A DNA stretch of 64,000 nt, taken from positions 7,341-71,340 of the forward strand of contig SBGZ01000061.1 in the NCBI GenBank assembly GCA_006226415.1, in the 5' to 3' direction. The notes under the pieces are model-generated. The model had not been told where the DNA came from, searched no databases, and saw only the letters and a program-made list of their open reading frames with translations. Made by a program: the position numbers and the translations under genes. Shown piece by piece: positions 2,026 to 11,836 of the stretch. Source of the stretch: Alphaproteobacteria bacterium. GTDB lineage: Bacteria; Pseudomonadota; Alphaproteobacteria; M2410. Each line of letters starts with the position of its first letter. Position 1 is the first letter of the stretch.

Positions 2026-2970
2026 ATGCGTCGATCGATCATTGGTTTGCTGGCTTTTTTGGCTGTCCTAACCGGCGCTTTTCTTGGCCTTGCCGACTTT
2101 GACATACCGCTTGAGACCTTAAAGGGCCGCTACGGGGCGCCGCCCTCGCGCTTTGTTCAGCTGCCCGGCGGCATGACCGCGCATTACCGCGATCAGGGCA
2201 ATGTCAACGGCCGGGTGTTGGTGCTTTTGCATGGCTCCAACGACTCGCTTTTTACCTGGGAGCCCTGGGTCGCTGAGCTTGGGCAGGATTACCGCCTCAT
2301 CACCGTCGATCTGCCGGGACACGGACTGTCGTCATTTGCTGAAAACAATGTTTACACGAGCGATATCTATCTGAATTTTGTCTCGGAATTCATTGGCGTC
2401 TTGCAGCTCGACACTTTCGTGCTTGGCGGCAATTCGATGGGCGGCAAGATCGCCTGGCGCTACGCGCTCGACCATCCGGAAAAATTGGAAGCGCTTGTGT
2501 TGCTGGATGCCTCGGGGATTGATCTTGGGGGACCGCCGCAGGAAGAAGGCTTGCTCTATCAGGTCGCCGAAACGCCGGGGCTCAATAAAGTGCTGGATTA
2601 TGTGCTGCCTGAGAAGCTGGTTGCCAATACCCTGCGTGATGCCATCTATGATGATGATCTGGTAACCCAGGCCATGGTTGATCAGTATCATGATCTTTTG
2701 TTGCGTGAGGGGCGGCGTCAGGCTTCCAAGGCGCGTCTTTTAGCCCCTAAAGAGGCGCAGCCGACGGAGCGTCTTGGTGAGATTTCAGTTCCCACGCTTA
2801 TTCTCTGGGGCGAAGAAGACACTTATGTGTCTGTGGAGGCGGCATATATTTTCGATGCGCAGATCCCGAATTCAGCCCTGATTGTCTATCCAGAGGTCGG
2901 TCATCTGCCGATGGTGGAGGTGCCAGAGGATAGCGCCGCTTCGCTTAAGGCGTTTTTGATTCTCCACTAG
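2026..2970 (+). CDS. alpha/beta-fold hydrolase with a signal/anchor sequence
   Basis: Carries an HGSNDS oxyanion region, a GNSMGG nucleophile elbow and a C-terminal GH motif. Its stop codon TAG (2968-2970) lies inside the left 14-bp direct repeat of the downstream islet. Confidence 0.85.
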   Translation: MRRSIIGLLAFLAVLTGAFLGLADFDIPLETLKGRYGAPPSRFVQLPGGMTAHYRDQGNVNGRVLVLLHGSNDSLFTWEPWVAELGQDYRLITVDLPGHGLSSFAENNVYTSDIYLNFVSEFIGVLQLDTFVLGGNSMGGKIAWRYALDHPEKLEALVLLDASGIDLGGPPQEEGLLYQVAETPGLNKVLDYVLPEKLVANTLRDAIYDDDLVTQAMVDQYHDLLLREGRRQASKARLLAPKEAQPTERLGEISVPTLILWGEEDTYVSVEAAYIFDAQIPNSALIVYPEVGHLPMVEVPEDSAASLKAFLILH

Positions 2971-2976
2971 ATTGAC
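2963..2976. repeat. left copy of a perfect 14-bp direct repeat, tccactagattgac
   Basis: An identical 14-mer recurs at 4658-4671. The two copies sit exactly at the edges of the AT-rich segment. Confidence 0.85.
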
Positions 2977-3114
2977 TTTCTGAAACTTTACACCCAAAAA
3001 CAATTGTAATTCTGATTGTGCAATCTTAGATTGTCATAGTGCGATTTGAGTCGAATTATGACAACAATGTGTCGAATGTGAACGCTATCGAGAATGTCAA
3101 GGGAGTAGCAAACT

Positions 3115-4158
3115 GTGACTAACCAAGAATGGGAATACTCTGACACAGAAGATGCGCCGGAGATAGAAGCTGAGCCTAAGCTCGAATATGAAATCATGAA
3201 TTATCCGGCAGATACAACACTGCAAGGATACCAAGAAATGTGGGATCGGGGGGAGCTCTCGGTTCCCGAATTCCAAAGGGAATTTATCTGGGATCAGGTT
3301 AAGGCGAGTAAATTGATTGAGAGTTTCTTGCTAGGACTTCCTGTGCCCGGTGTCTTCCTTTTTAAAGAACGAGAAAGTTCTAAGTATCTAATAATTGATG
3401 GGCAGCAACGCATCACATCAATTGTCTCTTTTCTTAAAGGAGTAATTCACGACCGCGTATTTCGTTTAAAGAATGTGGACCGCCGTTGGGAGGGGAGGAC
3501 CTTTAAAGAATTGTCCGAAAGTGATCGATTTACACTAACCGGCCGAGTGTTAAGGGCGACAATAATTCAGCAAATAAGTCCTGATGATAAAACTAGTATC
3601 TATCATATTTTTGAACGCCTCAATACAGGAGGTGTAAATCTAAACCCTATGGAAATAAGACAATGTGTTTCATACGGTCCATTCGTTCAGGTATTGAAAG
3701 ATATGAATGAAGACGCGAGTTGGAGAAAGTTGATTGGGAAAGATAACATTGACAAGCGTCTTCGTGATGTTGAATTGATATTGAGATGTTTGGCTCTATC
3801 GATAAATGCGGACAATTATGAAAAGCCCATGAAAGGTTTTCTCAATAAGTATATGGAACGAGAGCGCGCCAATCCATCAGATTACGAGCAACTCAAAACA
3901 AACTTCTCTAACACGTGCACGGAAATCATTTCATGCCTTGGAGAAAAACCCTTTAATTTGAGAGGTAGGCTGAACTATGGCCTCTTAGACTCTATACTGG
4001 CGACGGCGCTCAGATTGGGTGTTCCCAAAGACCTTGATGTAGATCTAAATGAATTGCTTAAGAATGAGGAATTTCTGGACGCAATTACAAAAAATACTAG
4101 CGACCTTTCGGAAGTAGAATGCCGAATGCGCTTGGCGTCTGAAGCATTTGCTTCTTAG
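3115..4158 (+). CDS. stand-alone DUF262 (ParB/Srx-like, GmrSD N-terminal type) protein
   Basis: Has the PEFQREFIW and LIIDGQQRITSI motifs typical of DUF262. It uses a GTG start after an aaggga SD. No DUF1524/HNH tail is present. Confidence 0.85.
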   Translation: MTNQEWEYSDTEDAPEIEAEPKLEYEIMNYPADTTLQGYQEMWDRGELSVPEFQREFIWDQVKASKLIESFLLGLPVPGVFLFKERESSKYLIIDGQQRITSIVSFLKGVIHDRVFRLKNVDRRWEGRTFKELSESDRFTLTGRVLRATIIQQISPDDKTSIYHIFERLNTGGVNLNPMEIRQCVSYGPFVQVLKDMNEDASWRKLIGKDNIDKRLRDVELILRCLALSINADNYEKPMKGFLNKYMERERANPSDYEQLKTNFSNTCTEIISCLGEKPFNLRGRLNYGLLDSILATALRLGVPKDLDVDLNELLKNEEFLDAITKNTSDLSEVECRMRLASEAFAS

Positions 4159-4633
4159 TGGGGCATATGAGATGTCAAAATTGCTTAGGACAGGACTTGC
4201 GCTCAAAGAGATAGAATCATTTTTGGGCACGGTTGAACATGAATCCCCGTTGGTTGAGAATTATTTGGCTCAGTATCTTGCTGTGGCCTTTTACTCAGAA
4301 ATGGAGGAAAGAGTTAAGGCGGTTTATCAAGACAGAATTCAAGGAAGCGGTGATGTGAGAATAGCCAATTTTATCTTGAAGACTCAGGATGCAATGCTGG
4401 GGAGGGTTAGAAAATCGGACATAAAAGAAATGGCGAAATGTTTTGGAGATGACTGCAGAGACCGTTTCAATGCCGCTCTAAGCGAAGAATTGGTTCAGAA
4501 GTACCAAAACGTAATATTGAATCGACACGAAACAAGCCATACGACTGGAAGTAGTGTCACGATTGATGATGTAAAGGTCGCGGTTGAAGCGGCAGAAACG
4601 ATACTTGATGCCCTAAATTTGGCTATACAGTGA
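4148..4633 (+). CDS. HEPN-like small helical protein with an Rx4H motif
   Basis: Near the C-terminus the sequence NRHETSH gives an R-x4-H motif, and the composition looks all-helical. The TTG start at 4148 overlaps the DUF262 stop; an alternative ATG lies at 4172. It shares the AT-rich composition of the upstream gene. Confidence 0.6.
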   Translation: MLLSGAYEMSKLLRTGLALKEIESFLGTVEHESPLVENYLAQYLAVAFYSEMEERVKAVYQDRIQGSGDVRIANFILKTQDAMLGRVRKSDIKEMAKCFGDDCRDRFNAALSEELVQKYQNVILNRHETSHTTGSSVTIDDVKVAVEAAETILDALNLAIQ

Positions 4634-4657
4634 CGAATTTGTTAGCGCGAGGAAATT

Positions 4658-4671
4658 TCCACTAGATTGAC
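4658..4671. repeat. right copy of the 14-bp direct repeat, tccactagattgac
   Basis: Identical to 2963-2976. Composition returns to the GC-rich background immediately after it. Confidence 0.85.
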
Positions 4672-4739
4672 AATTTTTCTCCGCAAACATAGATTTTACC
4701 CCAGGTAGAAACTTTGGATTTTAACAGGAGGGTCAGGCG

Positions 4740-4826
4740 ATGGATTGCACCAACACCAGCAACTACCATCACTTTCGAACGCGTGGCCCCGTCTTGGCCC
4801 TGCAATCTCACGTTTTGCAGGGCTGA
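4740..4826 (+). CDS. possible 28-codon upstream ORF / leader peptide of the ABC-F gene
   Basis: An AGGAGG SD at 4726-4731 lies 8 nt before the ATG. The product is MDCTNTSNYHHFRTRGPVLALQSHVLQG. An 8-bp hairpin (4798-4822) lies inside its 3' end. It is absent from the track because it is under 60 aa. Confidence 0.3.
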   Translation: MDCTNTSNYHHFRTRGPVLALQSHVLQG

Positions 4827-4962
4827 TCAAAATATGAACTCCTAAACGGCATTCCTTGATCAGGCCTGTTCGGGTTGCAGCTTCGTTGAAGCAGCGACTT
4901 GTCGAACCCCAAAGAGCTTTTTACACGCCACAAAGCTCACGCCTTCTAAAGAGATCAAAAAA

Positions 4963-6480
4963 ATGTCTGTTCTTTCCCTTAAAGACGCCAGCTATCAGGC
5001 CCACGTTCAACTTTTTCAGTCGCTCACCTATTCGTTTGGCCGCGAGGACCGGGTGGGCCTTGTCGCGCTCAATGGCGCGGGCAAATCCACCTTCCTCAAG
5101 TGCCTGACCGGTGAGTTGGAATTTACATCCGGTGAGGTGACCTTCTCGCGCGGCGCGCGCATCGGCTATATGAGCCAAGAGGTCGAGGCTTCTCTCCTGG
5201 ACCTGACCTGCCGCGCGGCCATCACAAGTGCCTTGCCGGAGCCGCAGCGCGTTGACGAAAGTTGGCGGGTGGACATGGTTTTAGGCTCGCTCGGGTTTGA
5301 AGAGGCTCAATACGAACAGACCGTTGCCACGCTCAGTGGGGGCTGGCAGCGCCTTCTCTTGCTGGCGCGGATCTGGGTGACCGAGCCCGATATTCTGTTG
5401 ATGGATGAGCCGACCAATCACCTGGATCTTGAAAAGATTTTGTTTTTGGAGAACTGGCTTCTCACCTGGGCGGCGCATATGCCGGTCATTATTGCCAGTC
5501 ACGACCGGAGCTTTCTGGATGCGGTGACCAATCGCACGTTGTTTTTGCGGCCTGGCCAGTCACAATATTTCAGTTTGCCCTACACCCGCGCCAAGCAGGA
5601 ACTTGAGCGGGTGGATGCCGCGCTGGCGCTCGAACGGGAGCGGCGGCTTGGCGAGGCCGAGCAATTGCGCAAGCAATCGGCCAAACTGAAAAACATTGGC
5701 CTGAACTCCGGCAGCGACTTGTTGCAGAAGAAGCAAAAGCAGTTGCGCGAGCGGGCCGAGCGCATTGAAGAAAAGGTCGAAGAACTGCATGCGGAGCGGG
5801 CGGGCGAGATCCGCCTGGCCACAGGCGGCACCCATGCCAAGGTGTTGGTGCGGGTCGAAAACCTTGAGGTCGCGACACCGGACGGGCGGCTGCTCTTTAA
5901 GGTGCCGGCACTTGATATTGCGCAAGGGGACCGGCTCGTGCTGCTCGGACACAACGGCTGCGGCAAGTCGACCTTCGTCCGCCTCTTGCGCCGGGCGCTG
6001 GTGGCGGGGGAAGAGATCCCCGGCATCCGCGTGACCCCCTCGCTTAACACAGGCTATCTCGATCAGGCACTTTCCGATGTGCCGCCGGACGTGAGCTCGT
6101 TTGAGCATGTGGCCCATCGCGGGGAGAGCGACGCGCGCTGTCATGCGGCGCTTGCCAGTGCGGGCATCTCGTTTGACTGGCAGACAAAGCCGATGCGGCT
6201 CCTCTCCTGGGGACAGCGGGCACGGGTGGCCCTCCTGGCGCTCAGGTTTGAGGCACCCAATTTCTACCTGCTTGATGAGCCGACGAACCATGTGGATATC
6301 GCCGGTCAGGAGATGTTGGCCGACGAGATCAAGTCACGCGGTGCCGGCTCGGTGCTGGTCACCCACGACCGGACGTTCGCGCGGGAGACCGGCAACCGGT
6401 TTTTGGTAATTGAGGGCGGAAAACTCAGCGAAAGCGCCTCGCCGGAGAGCTATTTTGCCTCCGTCGCCGCTGAAATCTAA
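4963..6480 (+). CDS. ABC-F family ATPase: two ABC domains and no TM domain
   Basis: Contains two Walker A motifs (NGAGKST, GHNGCGKST), two signature motifs (LSGGWQ, LSWGQR) and two Walker B motifs (LLMDEPTNHLD, YLLDEPTNHVD). A charged coiled linker joins the domains. Confidence 0.9.
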   Translation: MSVLSLKDASYQAHVQLFQSLTYSFGREDRVGLVALNGAGKSTFLKCLTGELEFTSGEVTFSRGARIGYMSQEVEASLLDLTCRAAITSALPEPQRVDESWRVDMVLGSLGFEEAQYEQTVATLSGGWQRLLLLARIWVTEPDILLMDEPTNHLDLEKILFLENWLLTWAAHMPVIIASHDRSFLDAVTNRTLFLRPGQSQYFSLPYTRAKQELERVDAALALERERRLGEAEQLRKQSAKLKNIGLNSGSDLLQKKQKQLRERAERIEEKVEELHAERAGEIRLATGGTHAKVLVRVENLEVATPDGRLLFKVPALDIAQGDRLVLLGHNGCGKSTFVRLLRRALVAGEEIPGIRVTPSLNTGYLDQALSDVPPDVSSFEHVAHRGESDARCHAALASAGISFDWQTKPMRLLSWGQRARVALLALRFEAPNFYLLDEPTNHVDIAGQEMLADEIKSRGAGSVLVTHDRTFARETGNRFLVIEGGKLSESASPESYFASVAAEI

Positions 6481-6531: not shown

Positions 6532-6607
<76 letters not shown>

Positions 6608-9595: not shown

Positions 9596-11836
9596 TCAGT
9601 CTTCTCTTAAACTTGCCATCAGCTCTTCCGGGACCGGCAGGAGACCGGCGTCTTCGGCGGCTTTGCGTTCTGCAGCGAGGTGGGCATCTGACTGCTCCAG
9701 CAGCGCTTTGTACCTTGGATCGTCCTGAAGTTCTTCAAAAATGACATCCGCGATCAATTGGGAAAATATCCAGTGGGAGCGTGCCCACTGATCTTCCAAT
9801 GCTTCCAGGGCGGCTTCTTTGTTTCCTTCCGCCATTGCAATGCATGCGCTTAGATAGTCCGTCGTAAAATAGATACCGTCCGGGTCGGCAAGAAGTGTCT
9901 GGTGGATGTATTTCAGTTTATCCAGGATGAGAGCAGCACGCGCCCGCTTCCCAAGCTTTCGGCTTAGATAGAGAGACAGGGTCGCGCCATTGCAGCTTGC
10001 CCCAATGTCATAGTTTGGTCCCCAGCCGTCAGGGTCGGGGTCGTCAAAGTACATGAGCAGGTCGAGGGCTTCCTGGTACTCCCCTTCGCGGGCCTTCCAG
10101 TCGGCCAGAGTGAGCGCGATTTCATGGTTTTTCGCAGCCCCCTCCCGGGCTTCGATTTGCTGGCAAAGACGCCGTGCTGCACTCTCATCTCCAGCTAGCG
10201 TGTATAATGACAACGCCATAACTGGATCAAATTCTTCGAAGACGGCGATATATCCAAGCATGCCAGCAAGGGCCTGGGTGTAATAGAGCGCAACGGCATT
10301 TGCGGTCAGCGCTTCCAAATTCAGCTGCAGGGTCATCGCCTGCGCATAGTGTCCCTTATGCATGGCGATGAGTGATCGACAATAATCAATAAACAGGGAT
10401 CCAGGATGGGATGCCTCCAGCTGGCGGAGAGTGGCGTTGGCGTCGTCCCAATTCTGACGGTACAGGTGTTCATTAAAGACACTCGTAAGGGCGAGCAAGG
10501 AGACCGGGTCTCGCTCGAGTGCCTTGCGCGCACTCGAAAAGACCGGTGCCGAAGGATCCCCGCCCATTTTATGGGCCTGAGTTAAAAGATTGTAACCACG
10601 CGAGTAATTCGGATTGAGGTTGATCGCCATTTCAGCTGAGGTCTGGGCTTTTGCCAGATCGCCGTTCAGCATGTAATACAAGCTCCAAATTCCATGTACC
10701 TCAGCGGCAGTGGGGTCGAGACCTTGTGCCTTTTCCAGAAGAGGCCAGGCGGCGGCCAAAGCTTCTTTCAAAGGGGTCCGGCCATAACAGGAGCCATCGT
10801 CGGAGAGAAGCAGCATGGCATCGGCCAATCCGATAATTGCAGGCGCATAGTCCGGGTCGGATATTAGAGCGGCCTCAAAGTGCTGTTTGCCCGATTCTAT
10901 ATCTTCCCGCGTGCGTTTCCTCAGAAACTGTTGACCCAGCATATAATGCTCATAGGCGCCGACGCTGGCACTGCGGGCCGATTGCGGTGCCTGCATGGTG
11001 CCGCCACCTAGGATGTGATCTTTCAGTTCGGCGACAATGGCGGCGGAGATCTCGTCTTGCACGGCGAAGATGTCATCAAGGGTGCGGTCGTAGGTATCGG
11101 ACCAAAGGTGCGAAGAGTTGCCGGTTTCAATCAGCTGGGCGGTGATGCGTACCCGGTTGCCGGCTTTGCGGACCGAGCCCTCCAGAACATAGGCGACCTG
11201 CAGAAGCTCACCGATCTCAGCGACAGACTTGTCGGTGCCTTTGAAAGCAAAGGACGAGGTGCGGGCAATGACGGTCATCTCCTTGATTTTGGAGAGCAGA
11301 TTGAGCAGTTCCTCGGAAATGCCGTCGGAGAAAAACTCCTGCTCCGGATCCGATGACATATTGACGAAAGGCAGGACGGCGATGGAAGCGTCTGACTTGG
11401 TCTTGCCCGACTTCGGCAATGAGATCGCTTCATTGGGGGTGAGCCGACCGGAGGTCAGATGATGGTCGAGCGCTTGCAGGAGGTCATTGATGCAAGGGGC
11501 CTTGCCGCCGGACCAGCCGGAGAAGTCGATGGTCTGAAGCTGCCGAAAGCCCATGGGCGAACGAATGCCGTCCAGCGAGATCGGTAGCAGGTTACCGGTT
11601 TCCAGCGCCAGGTCCGCTTCGTCGGCAACCCAACGGGATTTGATCGCGTTCGGCGACCAGGCCACCAGCACGACACGGGCGTGGCGCACCTCGGTCTCGA
11701 TTTCTGAGGAAAATCTTGTGCCGCCTTTGAGCTGCCGGTCCCACCAGACGGAATAGCCGGCGCCCTCGAGCTCGGCCACAAGGGGCTCAATGCGCGCGCG
11801 ATCCTCGCTGGCGTAACTGACAAAAATATCGGCCAA
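9596..11836 (-). CDS. TIR-domain protein with a cyclase-type sensor-linker block and C-terminal TPR array (paralog 1)
   Basis: The N-terminus ADIFVSYASEDRA...SRWVADE is TIR-like. The middle block ASIAVLPFVNMSSDPEQ...GSVRKAGNRVRITAQLI follows, then TPR-like helical repeats at the C-terminus. The start codon is TTG. Confidence 0.85.
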   Translation of the reverse strand: MADIFVSYASEDRARIEPLVAELEGAGYSVWWDRQLKGGTRFSSEIETEVRHARVVLVAWSPNAIKSRWVADEADLALETGNLLPISLDGIRSPMGFRQLQTIDFSGWSGGKAPCINDLLQALDHHLTSGRLTPNEAISLPKSGKTKSDASIAVLPFVNMSSDPEQEFFSDGISEELLNLLSKIKEMTVIARTSSFAFKGTDKSVAEIGELLQVAYVLEGSVRKAGNRVRITAQLIETGNSSHLWSDTYDRTLDDIFAVQDEISAAIVAELKDHILGGGTMQAPQSARSASVGAYEHYMLGQQFLRKRTREDIESGKQHFEAALISDPDYAPAIIGLADAMLLLSDDGSCYGRTPLKEALAAAWPLLEKAQGLDPTAAEVHGIWSLYYMLNGDLAKAQTSAEMAINLNPNYSRGYNLLTQAHKMGGDPSAPVFSSARKALERDPVSLLALTSVFNEHLYRQNWDDANATLRQLEASHPGSLFIDYCRSLIAMHKGHYAQAMTLQLNLEALTANAVALYYTQALAGMLGYIAVFEEFDPVMALSLYTLAGDESAARRLCQQIEAREGAAKNHEIALTLADWKAREGEYQEALDLLMYFDDPDPDGWGPNYDIGASCNGATLSLYLSRKLGKRARAALILDKLKYIHQTLLADPDGIYFTTDYLSACIAMAEGNKEAALEALEDQWARSHWIFSQLIADVIFEELQDDPRYKALLEQSDAHLAAERKAAEDAGLLPVPEELMASLRED

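What the first reader, a model, noticed from the sequence alone, without database searches (positions are those of the whole stretch)
3115..4633. Stand-alone DUF262 (ParB-like) protein coupled to a small Rx4H HEPN-like protein: candidate two-gene defence module
Gene 1 (347 aa) has the DUF262 signature (PEFQREFIW, LIIDGQQRITSI). It lacks the DUF1524/HNH nuclease tail found in GmrSD, BrxU and SspE-type enzymes. Gene 2 (153-161 aa) either overlaps gene 1 or starts 13 nt after it. It is helical and carries NRHETSH, an R-x4-H motif of the HEPN RNase type, near its C-terminus. Both genes share the foreign composition of the islet. A plausible reading is that a DUF262 NTP-dependent sensor is paired in trans with a HEPN RNase effector, replacing the usual in-cis DNase. 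This would be an abortive-infection or toxin-like logic. I recall that computational surveys of the HEPN superfamily noted HEPN genes next to DUF262 genes. I know of no experimental characterisation of such a pair and cannot verify this here.
Basis: partly seen in the sequence, partly recalled or inferred. Interest (0 to 1): 0.75.

Follow-up and report, generated by a model that had tools for sequence, protein, structure and literature searches.

The report
PD-T4-2-like DUF262 plus HEPN defence pair
This is a small horizontally acquired two-gene cassette, a ParB-like DUF262 protein followed by a small HEPN RNase-type protein, and it belongs to a gene-pair type already shown to protect E. coli against phage T4 (PD-T4-2), so it is a new, diverged member of a known defence system.

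Summary
Gene 1 (3115-4158, 347 aa) is a DUF262/GmrSD_N protein with no DUF1524 or HNH tail. Gene 2 (4172-4633, 153 aa) is a RiboL-PSP-type HEPN protein (Pfam PF18735, above the gathering score). Its R118-x4-H123 motif is present in every sequence that has a residue there, across 150 cluster representatives. The pair sits in a 1.7-kb low-GC islet between housekeeping genes.

The pairing is strongly conserved. 60 of 66 genome loci with a gene-1 relative carry a gene-2 relative directly downstream. Two more carry a diverged R-x4-H ORF there. These loci span many bacterial phyla and archaea. The two proteins co-evolve (r = 0.87). No third gene is conserved.

'DUF262, HEPN' is the E. coli system PD-T4-2 (Vassallo 2022), validated against T4, also by deletion in its native strain. 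A RiboL-PSP-HEPN 'operon with ParB' was noted in 2013. PADLOC's PD-T4-2_A model covers gene 1 full length. Its narrow PD-T4-2_B model misses gene 2, but an E. coli prophage HEPN matches both that model and my gene-2 profile.

The mechanism (DNA-sensing NTPase licensing an RNase) is inferred and is untested even for PD-T4-2. Verdict: new member of a known kind; modest interest.

The parts
2963..2976 (+). Left copy of a 14-bp perfect direct repeat, TCCACTAGATTGAC. It overlaps the last two codons and the stop of the upstream alpha/beta-hydrolase gene (2026-2970).
   Evidence: family D4; sequence. In 57 other loci the longest flanking repeat is mostly 8-11 nt.
3031..3059 (+). Sigma-70-like promoter candidate (TTGTCA-17-AATTAT). 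It overlaps a 14-nt inverted repeat (3031-3044 / 3051-3064) about 55 nt upstream of gene 1. Weak evidence only.
   Evidence: I7. The number of promoter-like sites is no higher than in shuffled sequence.
3115..4158 (+). Gene 1: a 347-aa DUF262 (ParB/Srx-fold NTPase-type) protein with a helical C-terminal domain and no DUF1524/HNH. It is the PD-T4-2_A / NsnA-like component.
   Evidence: Pfam GmrSD_N 4.2e-28. PADLOC NsnA 3.8e-62 and PD-T4-2_A 1.6e-48, both full length. AF2 model pLDDT 82; best Foldseek hits are BrxU (2.5e-6), SspE, and ParB/Noc CTPases.
3115..3192 (+). Conserved acidic N-terminal tail of gene 1 (res 1-26), predicted disordered.
   Evidence: W6, T11, E12, E16, E18, Y25 and E26 are conserved in alignment A4. 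pLDDT is below 50-55. E. coli homologues have similar acidic tails.
3256..3663 (+). DUF262 / GmrSD_N domain (res 48-183), including the DGQQR nucleotide-binding motif at res 95-99 (nt 3397-3411).
   Evidence: D95, G96, Q97, Q98 and R99 are invariant in A4.
3676..4152 (+). C-terminal all-helical domain of gene 1 (res ~188-346). It corresponds to the 'ParBDB' DNA-binding domain described for NsnA, GmrSD and SspE.
   Evidence: The NsnA and PD-T4-2_A profiles cover it. The AF2 model shows helices 188-346. Domain description from PMC12065111.
4172..4633 (+). Gene 2: a 153-aa single-domain HEPN protein of the RiboL-PSP type (an alternative TTG start at 4148 gives 161 aa). Predicted RNase effector; PD-T4-2_B-like.
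   Evidence: PF18735 32.3 bits against cut-off 28.4. 127/150 family representatives hit PF18735. AF2 model is all-helical, pLDDT 84, pTM 0.81. A gene-2 relative lies directly downstream of a gene-1 relative in 60 of 66 GTDB loci.
4523..4540 (+). R-x4-H catalytic motif of HEPN (R118 H119 E T S H123).
   Evidence: R is present in 147/147 and H in 146/146 ungapped representatives. The residue after R is polar (H in 126/150, otherwise mostly D, N or Q), as is usual for HEPN.
4658..4671 (+). Right copy of the 14-bp direct repeat, 25 nt after the gene-2 stop. It marks the right edge of the low-GC islet.

Best explanation
This is a self-contained, horizontally acquired two-gene anti-phage module of the PD-T4-2 type.

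Gene 1 is a DUF262 (ParB/Srx-fold) NTP-binding protein with a helical DNA-binding-type C-terminal domain. It most likely acts as the infection sensor or switch, recognising phage DNA (possibly modified DNA, as GmrSD, BrxU and SspE do).

Gene 2 is a single-domain RiboL-PSP-type HEPN protein. It would homodimerise to form a composite R-x4-H active site and act as the RNase effector, cleaving tRNA or mRNA. The outcome would be growth arrest or abortive infection.

**Shown here:** domain identities, conservation of the catalytic motifs, strict gene pairing, co-evolution of the two proteins, foreign composition, and homology to E. coli pairs that PADLOC recognises as PD-T4-2.

**Taken from the literature:** a DUF262+HEPN pair protects against T4, T2 and T6.

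**Inferred only:** that this particular copy is active, what it senses, that gene 1 controls gene 2 by direct contact, the RNA target, and the abortive outcome.
For: **Domains**
- Pfam hits for both genes; PADLOC PD-T4-2_A at 1.6e-48 over positions 45-362 of 363.
- Gene 1 model matches BrxU, SspE and ParB.

**Gene-2 family**
- 484 clusters. R118 and H123 are invariant where a residue is present. 127/150 hit PF18735.

**Pairing**
- 60 of 66 GTDB loci with a gene-1 relative have a gene-2-family ORF at -41 to +27 nt (one disrupted locus at +199).
- Two more loci have diverged R-x4-H ORFs in the same place; one of them hits PF18735.
- The remaining four are one locus with no partner, one with a different architecture, and two contig ends.
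- The closest independent pair (68% / 44% identity) lies in an unrelated context.

**Co-evolution**
- Pairwise-identity matrices of A and B correlate at r = 0.87, Mantel p = 0.001, n = 58.

**Self-contained module**
- No third conserved gene; the largest flank cluster occurs in 5 loci.
- The pair has lower GC than its flanks in nearly all loci.

**Link to PD-T4-2**
- PMC9519451 Table S1 describes it as 'DUF262, HEPN'. Table S2 gives two ORFs spanning 1540 bp (ours span 1519 bp).
- The HHpred top hit for PD-T4-2B is PF18735 (97.8%), followed by MAE_28990 and Swt1. My family scan finds the same three families.
- The HEPN protein of the E. coli TW11681 P2-like prophage hits PADLOC PD-T4-2_B (1.3e-8) and also my gene-2 family HMM (8e-21). 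Its DUF262 partner is 37% identical to gene 1.
- Similar pairs occur on plasmids, prophages and phages.
Against: - PADLOC's PD-T4-2_B model does not hit gene 2, nor any of 150 family representatives, at E<=0.01. PADLOC would therefore not call the system here.
- Gene 1 scores higher on the Menshen NsnA model than on PD-T4-2_A. The same is true of every E. coli DUF262+HEPN pair tested, so this ranking does not discriminate.
- Foldseek of the gene-2 model against PDB gives no significant match (best E 0.37, TM 0.3-0.46). HEPN proteins (Csm6, AF_0298, HepT, SO_3166, TM0613) are merely enriched among the top hits.
- I could not retrieve the ECOR65 PD-T4-2 sequences for a direct comparison.
- No phenotype, RNase activity or protein-protein contact has been shown, either for this copy or mechanistically for PD-T4-2 itself.
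- The islet is not in a defence island.
Confidence: 0.72

Rival explanations
1. Toxin-antitoxin / addiction module. The HEPN protein is a constitutive RNase toxin, and the upstream DUF262 NTP-using enzyme is its antitoxin, by binding or by nucleotide-dependent modification as MNT does for HepT. The main role would be stabilising the mobile DNA that carries it; any phage defence would be a by-product.
For: - The gene order (larger NTP-using protein upstream, small HEPN downstream, tight spacing or overlap) resembles MNT-HEPN modules.
- HepT/MntA structures are among the top, though non-significant, fold matches.
- The pair is the main cargo of 3.9-kb E. coli plasmids and is common on conjugative plasmids.
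- The tight co-evolution fits direct neutralisation.
Against: - PD-T4-2 was not among the systems Vassallo et al. classed as TA-like.
- DUF262 domains with a known function are DNA-sensing NTPases, not protein modifiers (PMC12065111).
- Gene 1 carries a conserved DNA-binding-type C-terminal domain that a simple antitoxin would not need.
- This rival is not mutually exclusive with defence.
Confidence: 0.15
2. Degenerate Menshen (NsnABC) system. Gene 1 is an NsnA sensor that has lost its NsnB ATPase and NsnC effector, and gene 2 is an unrelated neighbour.
For: The best PADLOC hit of gene 1 is NsnA (3.8e-62, positions 42-379 of 385). An ABC-type ATPase gene lies 330 nt downstream (4963-6480).
Against: - The downstream ATPase is a two-cassette ABC-F protein with host-like GC, and it gives no NsnB hit.
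- It is absent from the 68%-identical pair's locus.
- Across 60 loci the conserved partner is the HEPN gene, and no ATPase recurs.
- Known DUF262+HEPN pairs also score best on NsnA.
Confidence: 0.03
3. Split type IV restriction-like enzyme. DUF262 recognises modified phage DNA, and the partner degrades DNA rather than RNA, giving direct immunity rather than abortive infection.
For: - The closest solved relatives of gene 1 are BrxU and SspE.
- The neighbouring DUF262 clade carries HNH in cis, once with an EVE modified-base reader.
- T4-selected systems generally also protected against T2 and T6, which carry modified cytosine.
- A few loci and one phage have an adjacent DNA methyltransferase.
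Against: - Gene 2 matches only HEPN families, with the canonical R-x4-H RNase motif and no metal-dependent DNase motif.
- All characterised HEPN nucleases cleave RNA (background in 10.64898/2026.02.22.705581).
Confidence: 0.07

Closest known systems
PD-T4-2 (E. coli ECOR65; Vassallo et al. 2022, PMC9519451)
   Same: - Two adjacent same-strand genes: a ~350-aa DUF262 protein without DUF1524, followed by a small HEPN protein whose best family is PF18735 RiboL-PSP.
- Total length about 1.5 kb (1540 bp against 1519 bp here).
- Carried on mobile or foreign DNA.
- The PADLOC PD-T4-2_A model covers gene 1 end to end.
   Different: - Gene 2 is not detected by PADLOC's PD-T4-2_B model. The link rests on an intermediate, the E. 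coli TW11681 prophage HEPN.
- The E. coli pairs I could retrieve are only 29-37% (A) and about 20-26% (B) identical to this pair.
- The host is an alphaproteobacterial MAG.
- There are no experimental data for this clade.
Menshen NsnABC (Millman 2022; PMC12065111)
   Same: Gene 1 has the NsnA architecture (ParB-DUF262 plus a helical 'ParBDB' domain) and scores best on the NsnA profile. The proposed logic is also the same: a DNA-sensing DUF262 protein controls an RNase effector encoded in trans.
   Different: There is no NsnB ABC-ATPase/DUF3696 transducer and no inPIN-nuclease NsnC. The effector is a HEPN protein, and the system has two genes rather than three.
GmrSD / BrxU / SspE (type IV restriction-like DUF262-DUF1524 enzymes)
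   Same: DUF262 domain with DGQQR. BrxU and SspE are the best structural matches for gene 1.
   Different: There is no DUF1524 His-Me nuclease in cis. The predicted effector is an RNase in trans.
DARNA / PD-T7-3 (bioRxiv 10.64898/2026.02.22.705581)
   Same: It has a HEPN domain of about 159 aa with R117-x4-H122 at almost the same position as R118-x4-H123 here. A DNA-sensing part activates a tRNA-cleaving HEPN, giving abortive infection. This is a plausible mechanistic analogue.
   Different: DARNA is a single polypeptide with a Pds5-like C-terminal ssDNA sensor and forms dodecamers. It has no DUF262. Only one of 150 gene-2 family representatives touches the PADLOC PD-T7-3 model (E 0.002).
HEPN-MNT (HepT-MntA) toxin-antitoxin modules
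   Same: A small single-domain HEPN protein is encoded directly after an NTP-using partner, and HepT structures are among the top fold matches.
   Different: The partner is a ParB/Srx-fold DUF262 protein, not a nucleotidyltransferase. There is no evidence of AMPylation.

Membership tests
PD-T4-2 | Component A: a DUF262 (PF03235) protein of about 360 aa lacking DUF1524, recognised by the PD-T4-2_A profile | tested here: met
   PF03235 at 4.2e-28 and no other Pfam domain. PADLOC PD-T4-2_A at 1.6e-48, 163.7 bits, positions 45-362 of 363. This is a similar score to the E. coli prophage protein whose partner hits PD-T4-2_B (186.5 bits).
PD-T4-2 | Component B: a small HEPN protein recognised by the PD-T4-2_B profile | tested here: not met
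   No PADLOC hit for gene 2 at E<=10, nor for 150 family representatives at E<=0.01. The model is narrow: other E. coli DUF262-linked HEPNs score only 2e-4 to 1e-8.
PD-T4-2 | Component B belongs to the RiboL-PSP HEPN family (PF18735) and carries R-x4-6-H, as reported for PD-T4-2B | tested here: met
   PF18735 at 32.3 bits against cut-off 28.4. RHETSH is conserved. The published HHpred for PD-T4-2B gives PF18735 at 97.8%. TW11681 HEPN hits both PD-T4-2_B (1.3e-8) and the gene-2 family HMM (8e-21).
PD-T4-2 | A and B are adjacent, co-oriented, and conserved as a pair | tested here: met
   13-nt gap or 11-nt overlap in the window. 60 of 66 loci are paired, plus 2 with a diverged partner. Co-evolution r = 0.87.
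PD-T4-2 | Confers resistance to phage | not testable with these tools
   Shown only for the ECOR65 system (PMC9519451).
Menshen (NsnABC) | An NsnA-like DUF262+ParBDB protein | tested here: met
   PADLOC NsnA at 3.8e-62, positions 42-379 of 385.
Menshen (NsnABC) | An NsnB ABC-ATPase/DUF3696 gene and an NsnC effector gene immediately downstream | tested here: not met
   The downstream gene is a HEPN. The next gene is a host-GC ABC-F protein with no NsnB hit. No recurrent ATPase is found in 60 related loci.
GmrSD / BrxU / SspE | A C-terminal DUF1524 His-Me finger nuclease fused to DUF262 | tested here: not met
   No DUF1524/HNH hit at E<=10. The protein ends after the helical domain.
HEPN superfamily | A four-helix up-down core with R-x4-6-H at the start of the last core helix, forming a dimeric composite active site | tested here: inconclusive
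   The sequence profile and motif criteria are met. The AF2 model is all-helical, but Foldseek gives no significant match; HEPN structures are only enriched among weak hits. In the model the motif lies in a lower-confidence loop (res 117-130). Dimerisation was not tested.

The most novel reading that the evidence does not exclude
DUF262-HEPN pairs may form a much larger and older family than the E. coli PD-T4-2 models capture. I find at least 484 50%-identity HEPN clusters, from Alphaproteobacteria to Saccharibacteria and archaea.

They would move as autonomous ~1.6-kb cassettes, here bounded by a 14-bp target duplication. They would work by a mechanism not yet described for any system: a ParB-fold NTP switch that, on binding phage DNA, releases or activates a separate HEPN dimer in trans. 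The conserved acidic N-terminal tail of the DUF262 protein might act as an autoinhibitory, pseudo-substrate element. A subclade with K in place of the catalytic R may represent an altered chemistry or target.
Probability: 0.3. Interest if true: 0.55.

Novelty: new member of a known kind. Interest (0 to 1): 0.3.

Why it matters
The pair type is already in the defence catalogues, so this finding does not open a new category. Two points have practical value.

1. Current PADLOC models would not call this locus, because the B model is too narrow. A sizeable, phylogenetically broad clade of PD-T4-2-like systems is therefore probably going unannotated.
2. The mechanism of PD-T4-2 is still unknown. 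This work provides the invariant R and H of the HEPN, the invariant DGQQR, the conserved acidic tail of the DUF262 protein, the strict 1:1 co-evolution, and a natural K-for-R subclade. Together these give concrete mutational and comparative handles for working out how a ParB-fold NTPase controls an RNase in trans.

Tried and rejected
- **The search for related loci with gene-2 alignments (A2, A3).** This failed because no stretch was conserved enough to back-translate. I used gene 1 as bait instead.
- **Word-indexed search with gene 2 alone.** It found only 2 relatives. The exhaustive HMMER search was needed.
- **tblastn of gene 2 against plasmids.** No match.
- **PDB sequence search with the gene-2 profile.** Nothing meaningful.
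- **Foldseek of the gene-2 model.** No significant hit.
- **Authentic ECOR65 PD-T4-2 sequences.** I tried to retrieve them through E. coli genome, plasmid and phage searches. I found four or five diverged E. coli DUF262+HEPN pairs but not a certain ECOR65 match.
- **Empty (uninserted) site.**
  - Exact-protein look-ups of the two flanking genes returned nothing.
  - A junction-pattern scan of metagenome contigs also returned nothing.
- **RNA elements.**
  - Rfam found no RNA element, such as an RNA antitoxin, in 2800-5100.
  - The only tRNA (Thr, 6532-6607) is not at the islet border.
- **Menshen remnant.** Considered and rejected, because no NsnB or NsnC is present.
- **Downstream ABC-F ATPase as part of the system.** Considered and rejected, because it has host-like GC and is not conserved with the pair.
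Full report
**1. What is in the sequence**

- Gene 1 runs 3115-4158 on the + strand (GTG start, 347 aa). It contains PEFQREFIW and LIIDGQQRITSI.
- Gene 2 is in frame from TTG 4148 (161 aa, 11-nt overlap) or ATG 4172 (153 aa, 13 nt after the stop). NRHETSH lies at residues 117-123 of the 153-aa form.
- Homologues are 152-165 aa and align from the first residues of the 153-aa form. A GGGG stretch lies 8 nt upstream of ATG 4172. I take 4172 as the start.
- For gene 1, an AAGGGAG Shine-Dalgarno lies 9 nt upstream of GTG 3115. Residues 1-26 are conserved in relatives. This supports the long form over the 320-aa form annotated for the identical MAG protein P0003.
- GC falls to 0.39-0.43 across the pair, against 0.56-0.63 in the flanks.
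- The flanking genes are ordinary: HemY and an alpha/beta hydrolase upstream, an ABC-F ATPase downstream, then tRNA-Thr. The pair is a solitary islet, not part of a defence island.

**2. What the proteins are**

*Gene 1*
- It matches Pfam GmrSD_N/DUF262 (4.2e-28, residues 48-183) and nothing else, even at E<=10. There is no DUF1524 or HNH tail.
- In PADLOC it is covered end to end by NsnA (3.8e-62) and PD-T4-2_A (1.6e-48).
- An AlphaFold model (pLDDT 82) has an N-terminal alpha/beta ParB-like domain and an all-helical C-terminal half.
- The best PDB matches are BrxU (2.5e-6), SspE, and then the ParB, Noc and KorB CTPases (sequence search).
- DGQQR is invariant in close relatives.

*Gene 2*
- It passes Pfam's gathering score for HEPN_RiboL-PSP (PF18735; 32.3 bits against 28.4).
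- An exhaustive HMMER search found 484 50%-identity clusters at E<=1e-3.
- Of the 150 best representatives, 127 hit PF18735, with Swt1-like and MAE_28990-like HEPN as secondary hits.
- R118 is present in 147 of 147 and H123 in 146 of 146 ungapped sequences. The residue after R is polar, as is typical of HEPN.
- The model is confident (pLDDT 84, pTM 0.81) and all-helical.
- Foldseek against PDB gave no significant match. Solved HEPN proteins (Csm6, AF_0298, HepT/MntA, SO_3166, TM0613) are only enriched among weak hits. The HEPN assignment therefore rests on profiles and motif conservation, not on a structural match.

**3. Is the pairing real?**

Using gene 1 as bait on one genome per GTDB species gave 79 loci.

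- 66 of these loci (L004-L069) hold the closer gene-1 relatives (about 31-64% identity). In 60 of them, an ORF matching the gene-2 family HMM lies directly downstream, at -41 to +27 nt.
- Two more have a small downstream ORF with RNAVAH or RHYLAH; one of these hits PF18735.
- One locus has no partner, one has a different fused architecture, and two are cut by contig ends.
- The loci span Alpha- and Gammaproteobacteria, Acidobacteriota, Cyanobacteria, Spirochaetia, Verrucomicrobiota, Bacteroidia, Nitrospirota, Saccharibacteria, and two archaeal MAGs.
- The closest independent pair (68% / 44% identity) sits among unrelated genes.
- Pairwise-identity matrices of the two proteins correlate at r = 0.87 (Mantel p = 0.001, 58 pairs). 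The HEPN protein evolves faster: mean identity is 26% against 44%.
- No third gene is conserved. The largest flanking cluster occurs in 5 loci and looks like an IS transposase. A Dcm-like methyltransferase recurs in 4 loci.
- The pair is GC-poorer than its flanks almost everywhere.
- The next DUF262 clade out (L071-L082, about 450 aa) has no HEPN partner. The two members tested (L075, L081) carry a C-terminal HNH, one with an N-terminal EVE domain.

**4. Comparison with what is known**

- The 2013 HEPN survey lists 'Ribo L-PSP-HEPN ... operon with ParB' (PMC3710099, Table 1).
- Vassallo et al. 2022 isolated PD-T4-2 from E. coli ECOR65 and described it as 'DUF262, HEPN'. It has two ORFs spanning 1540 bp, the second unannotated.
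- Their HHpred output gives PF03235 for component A. For component B it gives PF18735 (97.8%), then MAE_28990 and Swt1.
- PD-T4-2 protected K-12 against T4, and deleting it from ECOR65 restored T4 plaquing. The T4-selected systems generally also protected against T2 and T6 (PMC9519451).
- Later reviews list PD-T4-2 with Menshen and Dazbog as DUF262 systems that lack DUF1524 and remain mechanistically uncharacterised (PMC10952713, PMC12065111).
- I found no paper that resolves its mechanism.

**5. Membership**

- Component A is met. Adjacency and conservation as a pair are met. Component B meets the Pfam and motif definition but not PADLOC's PD-T4-2_B profile.
- That profile is narrow. HEPN partners of other E. 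coli DUF262 genes score only 2e-4 (NRG 857C prophage), 4e-4 (plasmid pLR-27_3) and 1.3e-8 (TW11681 P2-like prophage). The pMB06021 plasmid HEPN does not hit at all.
- The TW11681 HEPN also matches my gene-2 family HMM at 8e-21, and its DUF262 partner is 37% identical to gene 1. It bridges the two families. pLR-27_3 does the same more weakly.
- All of these E. coli DUF262 proteins score higher on NsnA than on PD-T4-2_A, as ours does, so that ranking is uninformative.
- Menshen itself is excluded because NsnB and NsnC are absent.
- I could not obtain the ECOR65 sequences themselves. I therefore file this as a diverged member of the PD-T4-2 type, not as an orthologue.

**6. How it most likely works** (inference)

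- In GmrSD, BrxU and SspE, DUF262 domains bind and hydrolyse NTPs. They sense phage-specific DNA and activate the attached nuclease (summarised in PMC12065111 and PMC10952713).
- HEPN domains dimerise to form an R-x4-H RNase site. In defence systems they cleave tRNA or mRNA. In DARNA/PD-T7-3, a HEPN domain with R117-x4-H122 is switched on by a DNA-sensing domain and cleaves tRNA anticodon loops.
- By analogy, gene 1 would sense phage DNA and license a gene-2 dimer to cleave RNA, arresting the infected cell.
- The tight co-evolution argues for direct contact between the two proteins.
- A TA-like reading, in which DUF262 acts as an enzymatic or stoichiometric antitoxin as in MNT-HepT, is not excluded and is compatible with defence.
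- A DNA-targeting reading is unlikely, given the HEPN motif.

**7. Verdict**

This locus is a new, diverged member. Interest is modest. It lies mainly in showing that the clade is large and broadly distributed, that current PADLOC models miss it, and that it offers clear handles for the still-unknown mechanism.

Noticed in passing
window 2963-2976 and 4658-4671: A perfect 14-bp direct repeat (TCCACTAGATTGAC) brackets the low-GC islet. The left copy includes the stop codon of the hydrolase gene. No integrase or transposase lies inside. This suggests site-specific insertion of a 1.7-kb cassette with target duplication. In 57 related loci the longest flanking repeat is 8-11 nt, except in L019 (45 bp) and L006 (13 bp).
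   Followed up: partly
L043, L045, L049, L050, L054, L061 (HEPN partner ORFs, e.g. L054:1678-2142): A subclade of the HEPN partners has lysine in place of the catalytic arginine (N-K-N-x-x-A-H-G). The one tested (L054) still hits PF18735 at 2e-14. The subclade includes archaeal and Saccharibacteria MAGs.
   Followed up: partly
window 3115-3192 (gene 1 residues 1-26): Gene 1 has a conserved, acidic N-terminal tail that is predicted to be disordered (W6, T11, E12, E16, E18, Y25, E26). E. coli homologues have it too. The public annotation of the identical protein starts at M28 and omits it. It may be a regulatory element.
   Followed up: partly
L071-L082 (e.g. L075:3941-5296, L081:3365-5206): The next DUF262 clade out has no HEPN neighbour. 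In the two members tested (L075, L081) it carries a C-terminal HNH nuclease in cis, and L081 also has an N-terminal EVE (modified-base reader) domain.
   Followed up: partly
L003, L083, L084, L085, L087 (E. coli); L086 (Akkermansia phage Chambord): E. coli carries at least four mutually diverged DUF262+HEPN pairs.
- L003: on conjugative-size plasmids.
- L085: on 3.9-kb plasmids.
- L083: inside a split capsid gene of a lambdoid prophage.
- L087: between cI and int of P2-like prophages.

P2-like phage P24B2 (L084) carries a DUF262 gene followed by a 239-aa ORF with RNDLAH. Akkermansia phage Chambord (L086) has methyltransferase + DUF262 + a HEPN-like ORF (RNLLVH).
   Followed up: partly
window 9596-11836 (-): A 746-aa protein with an N-terminal TIR domain (TIR_2, 1.6e-24) followed by TPR repeats. 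It gives weak PADLOC TIR hits. It lies about 5 kb from the islet and has host-like GC.
   Followed up: no
L005, L037, L041, L065 (upstream of the pair): A Dcm-like C5 DNA methyltransferase ORF lies next to the DUF262-HEPN pair in 4 of about 60 loci. This hints at an occasional link to DNA modification.
   Followed up: no
window 3031-3064: A 14-nt inverted repeat (TTGTCATAGTGCGA / TCGAATTATGACAA) overlaps the only + strand promoter-like site upstream of gene 1. It could be an operator.
   Followed up: no
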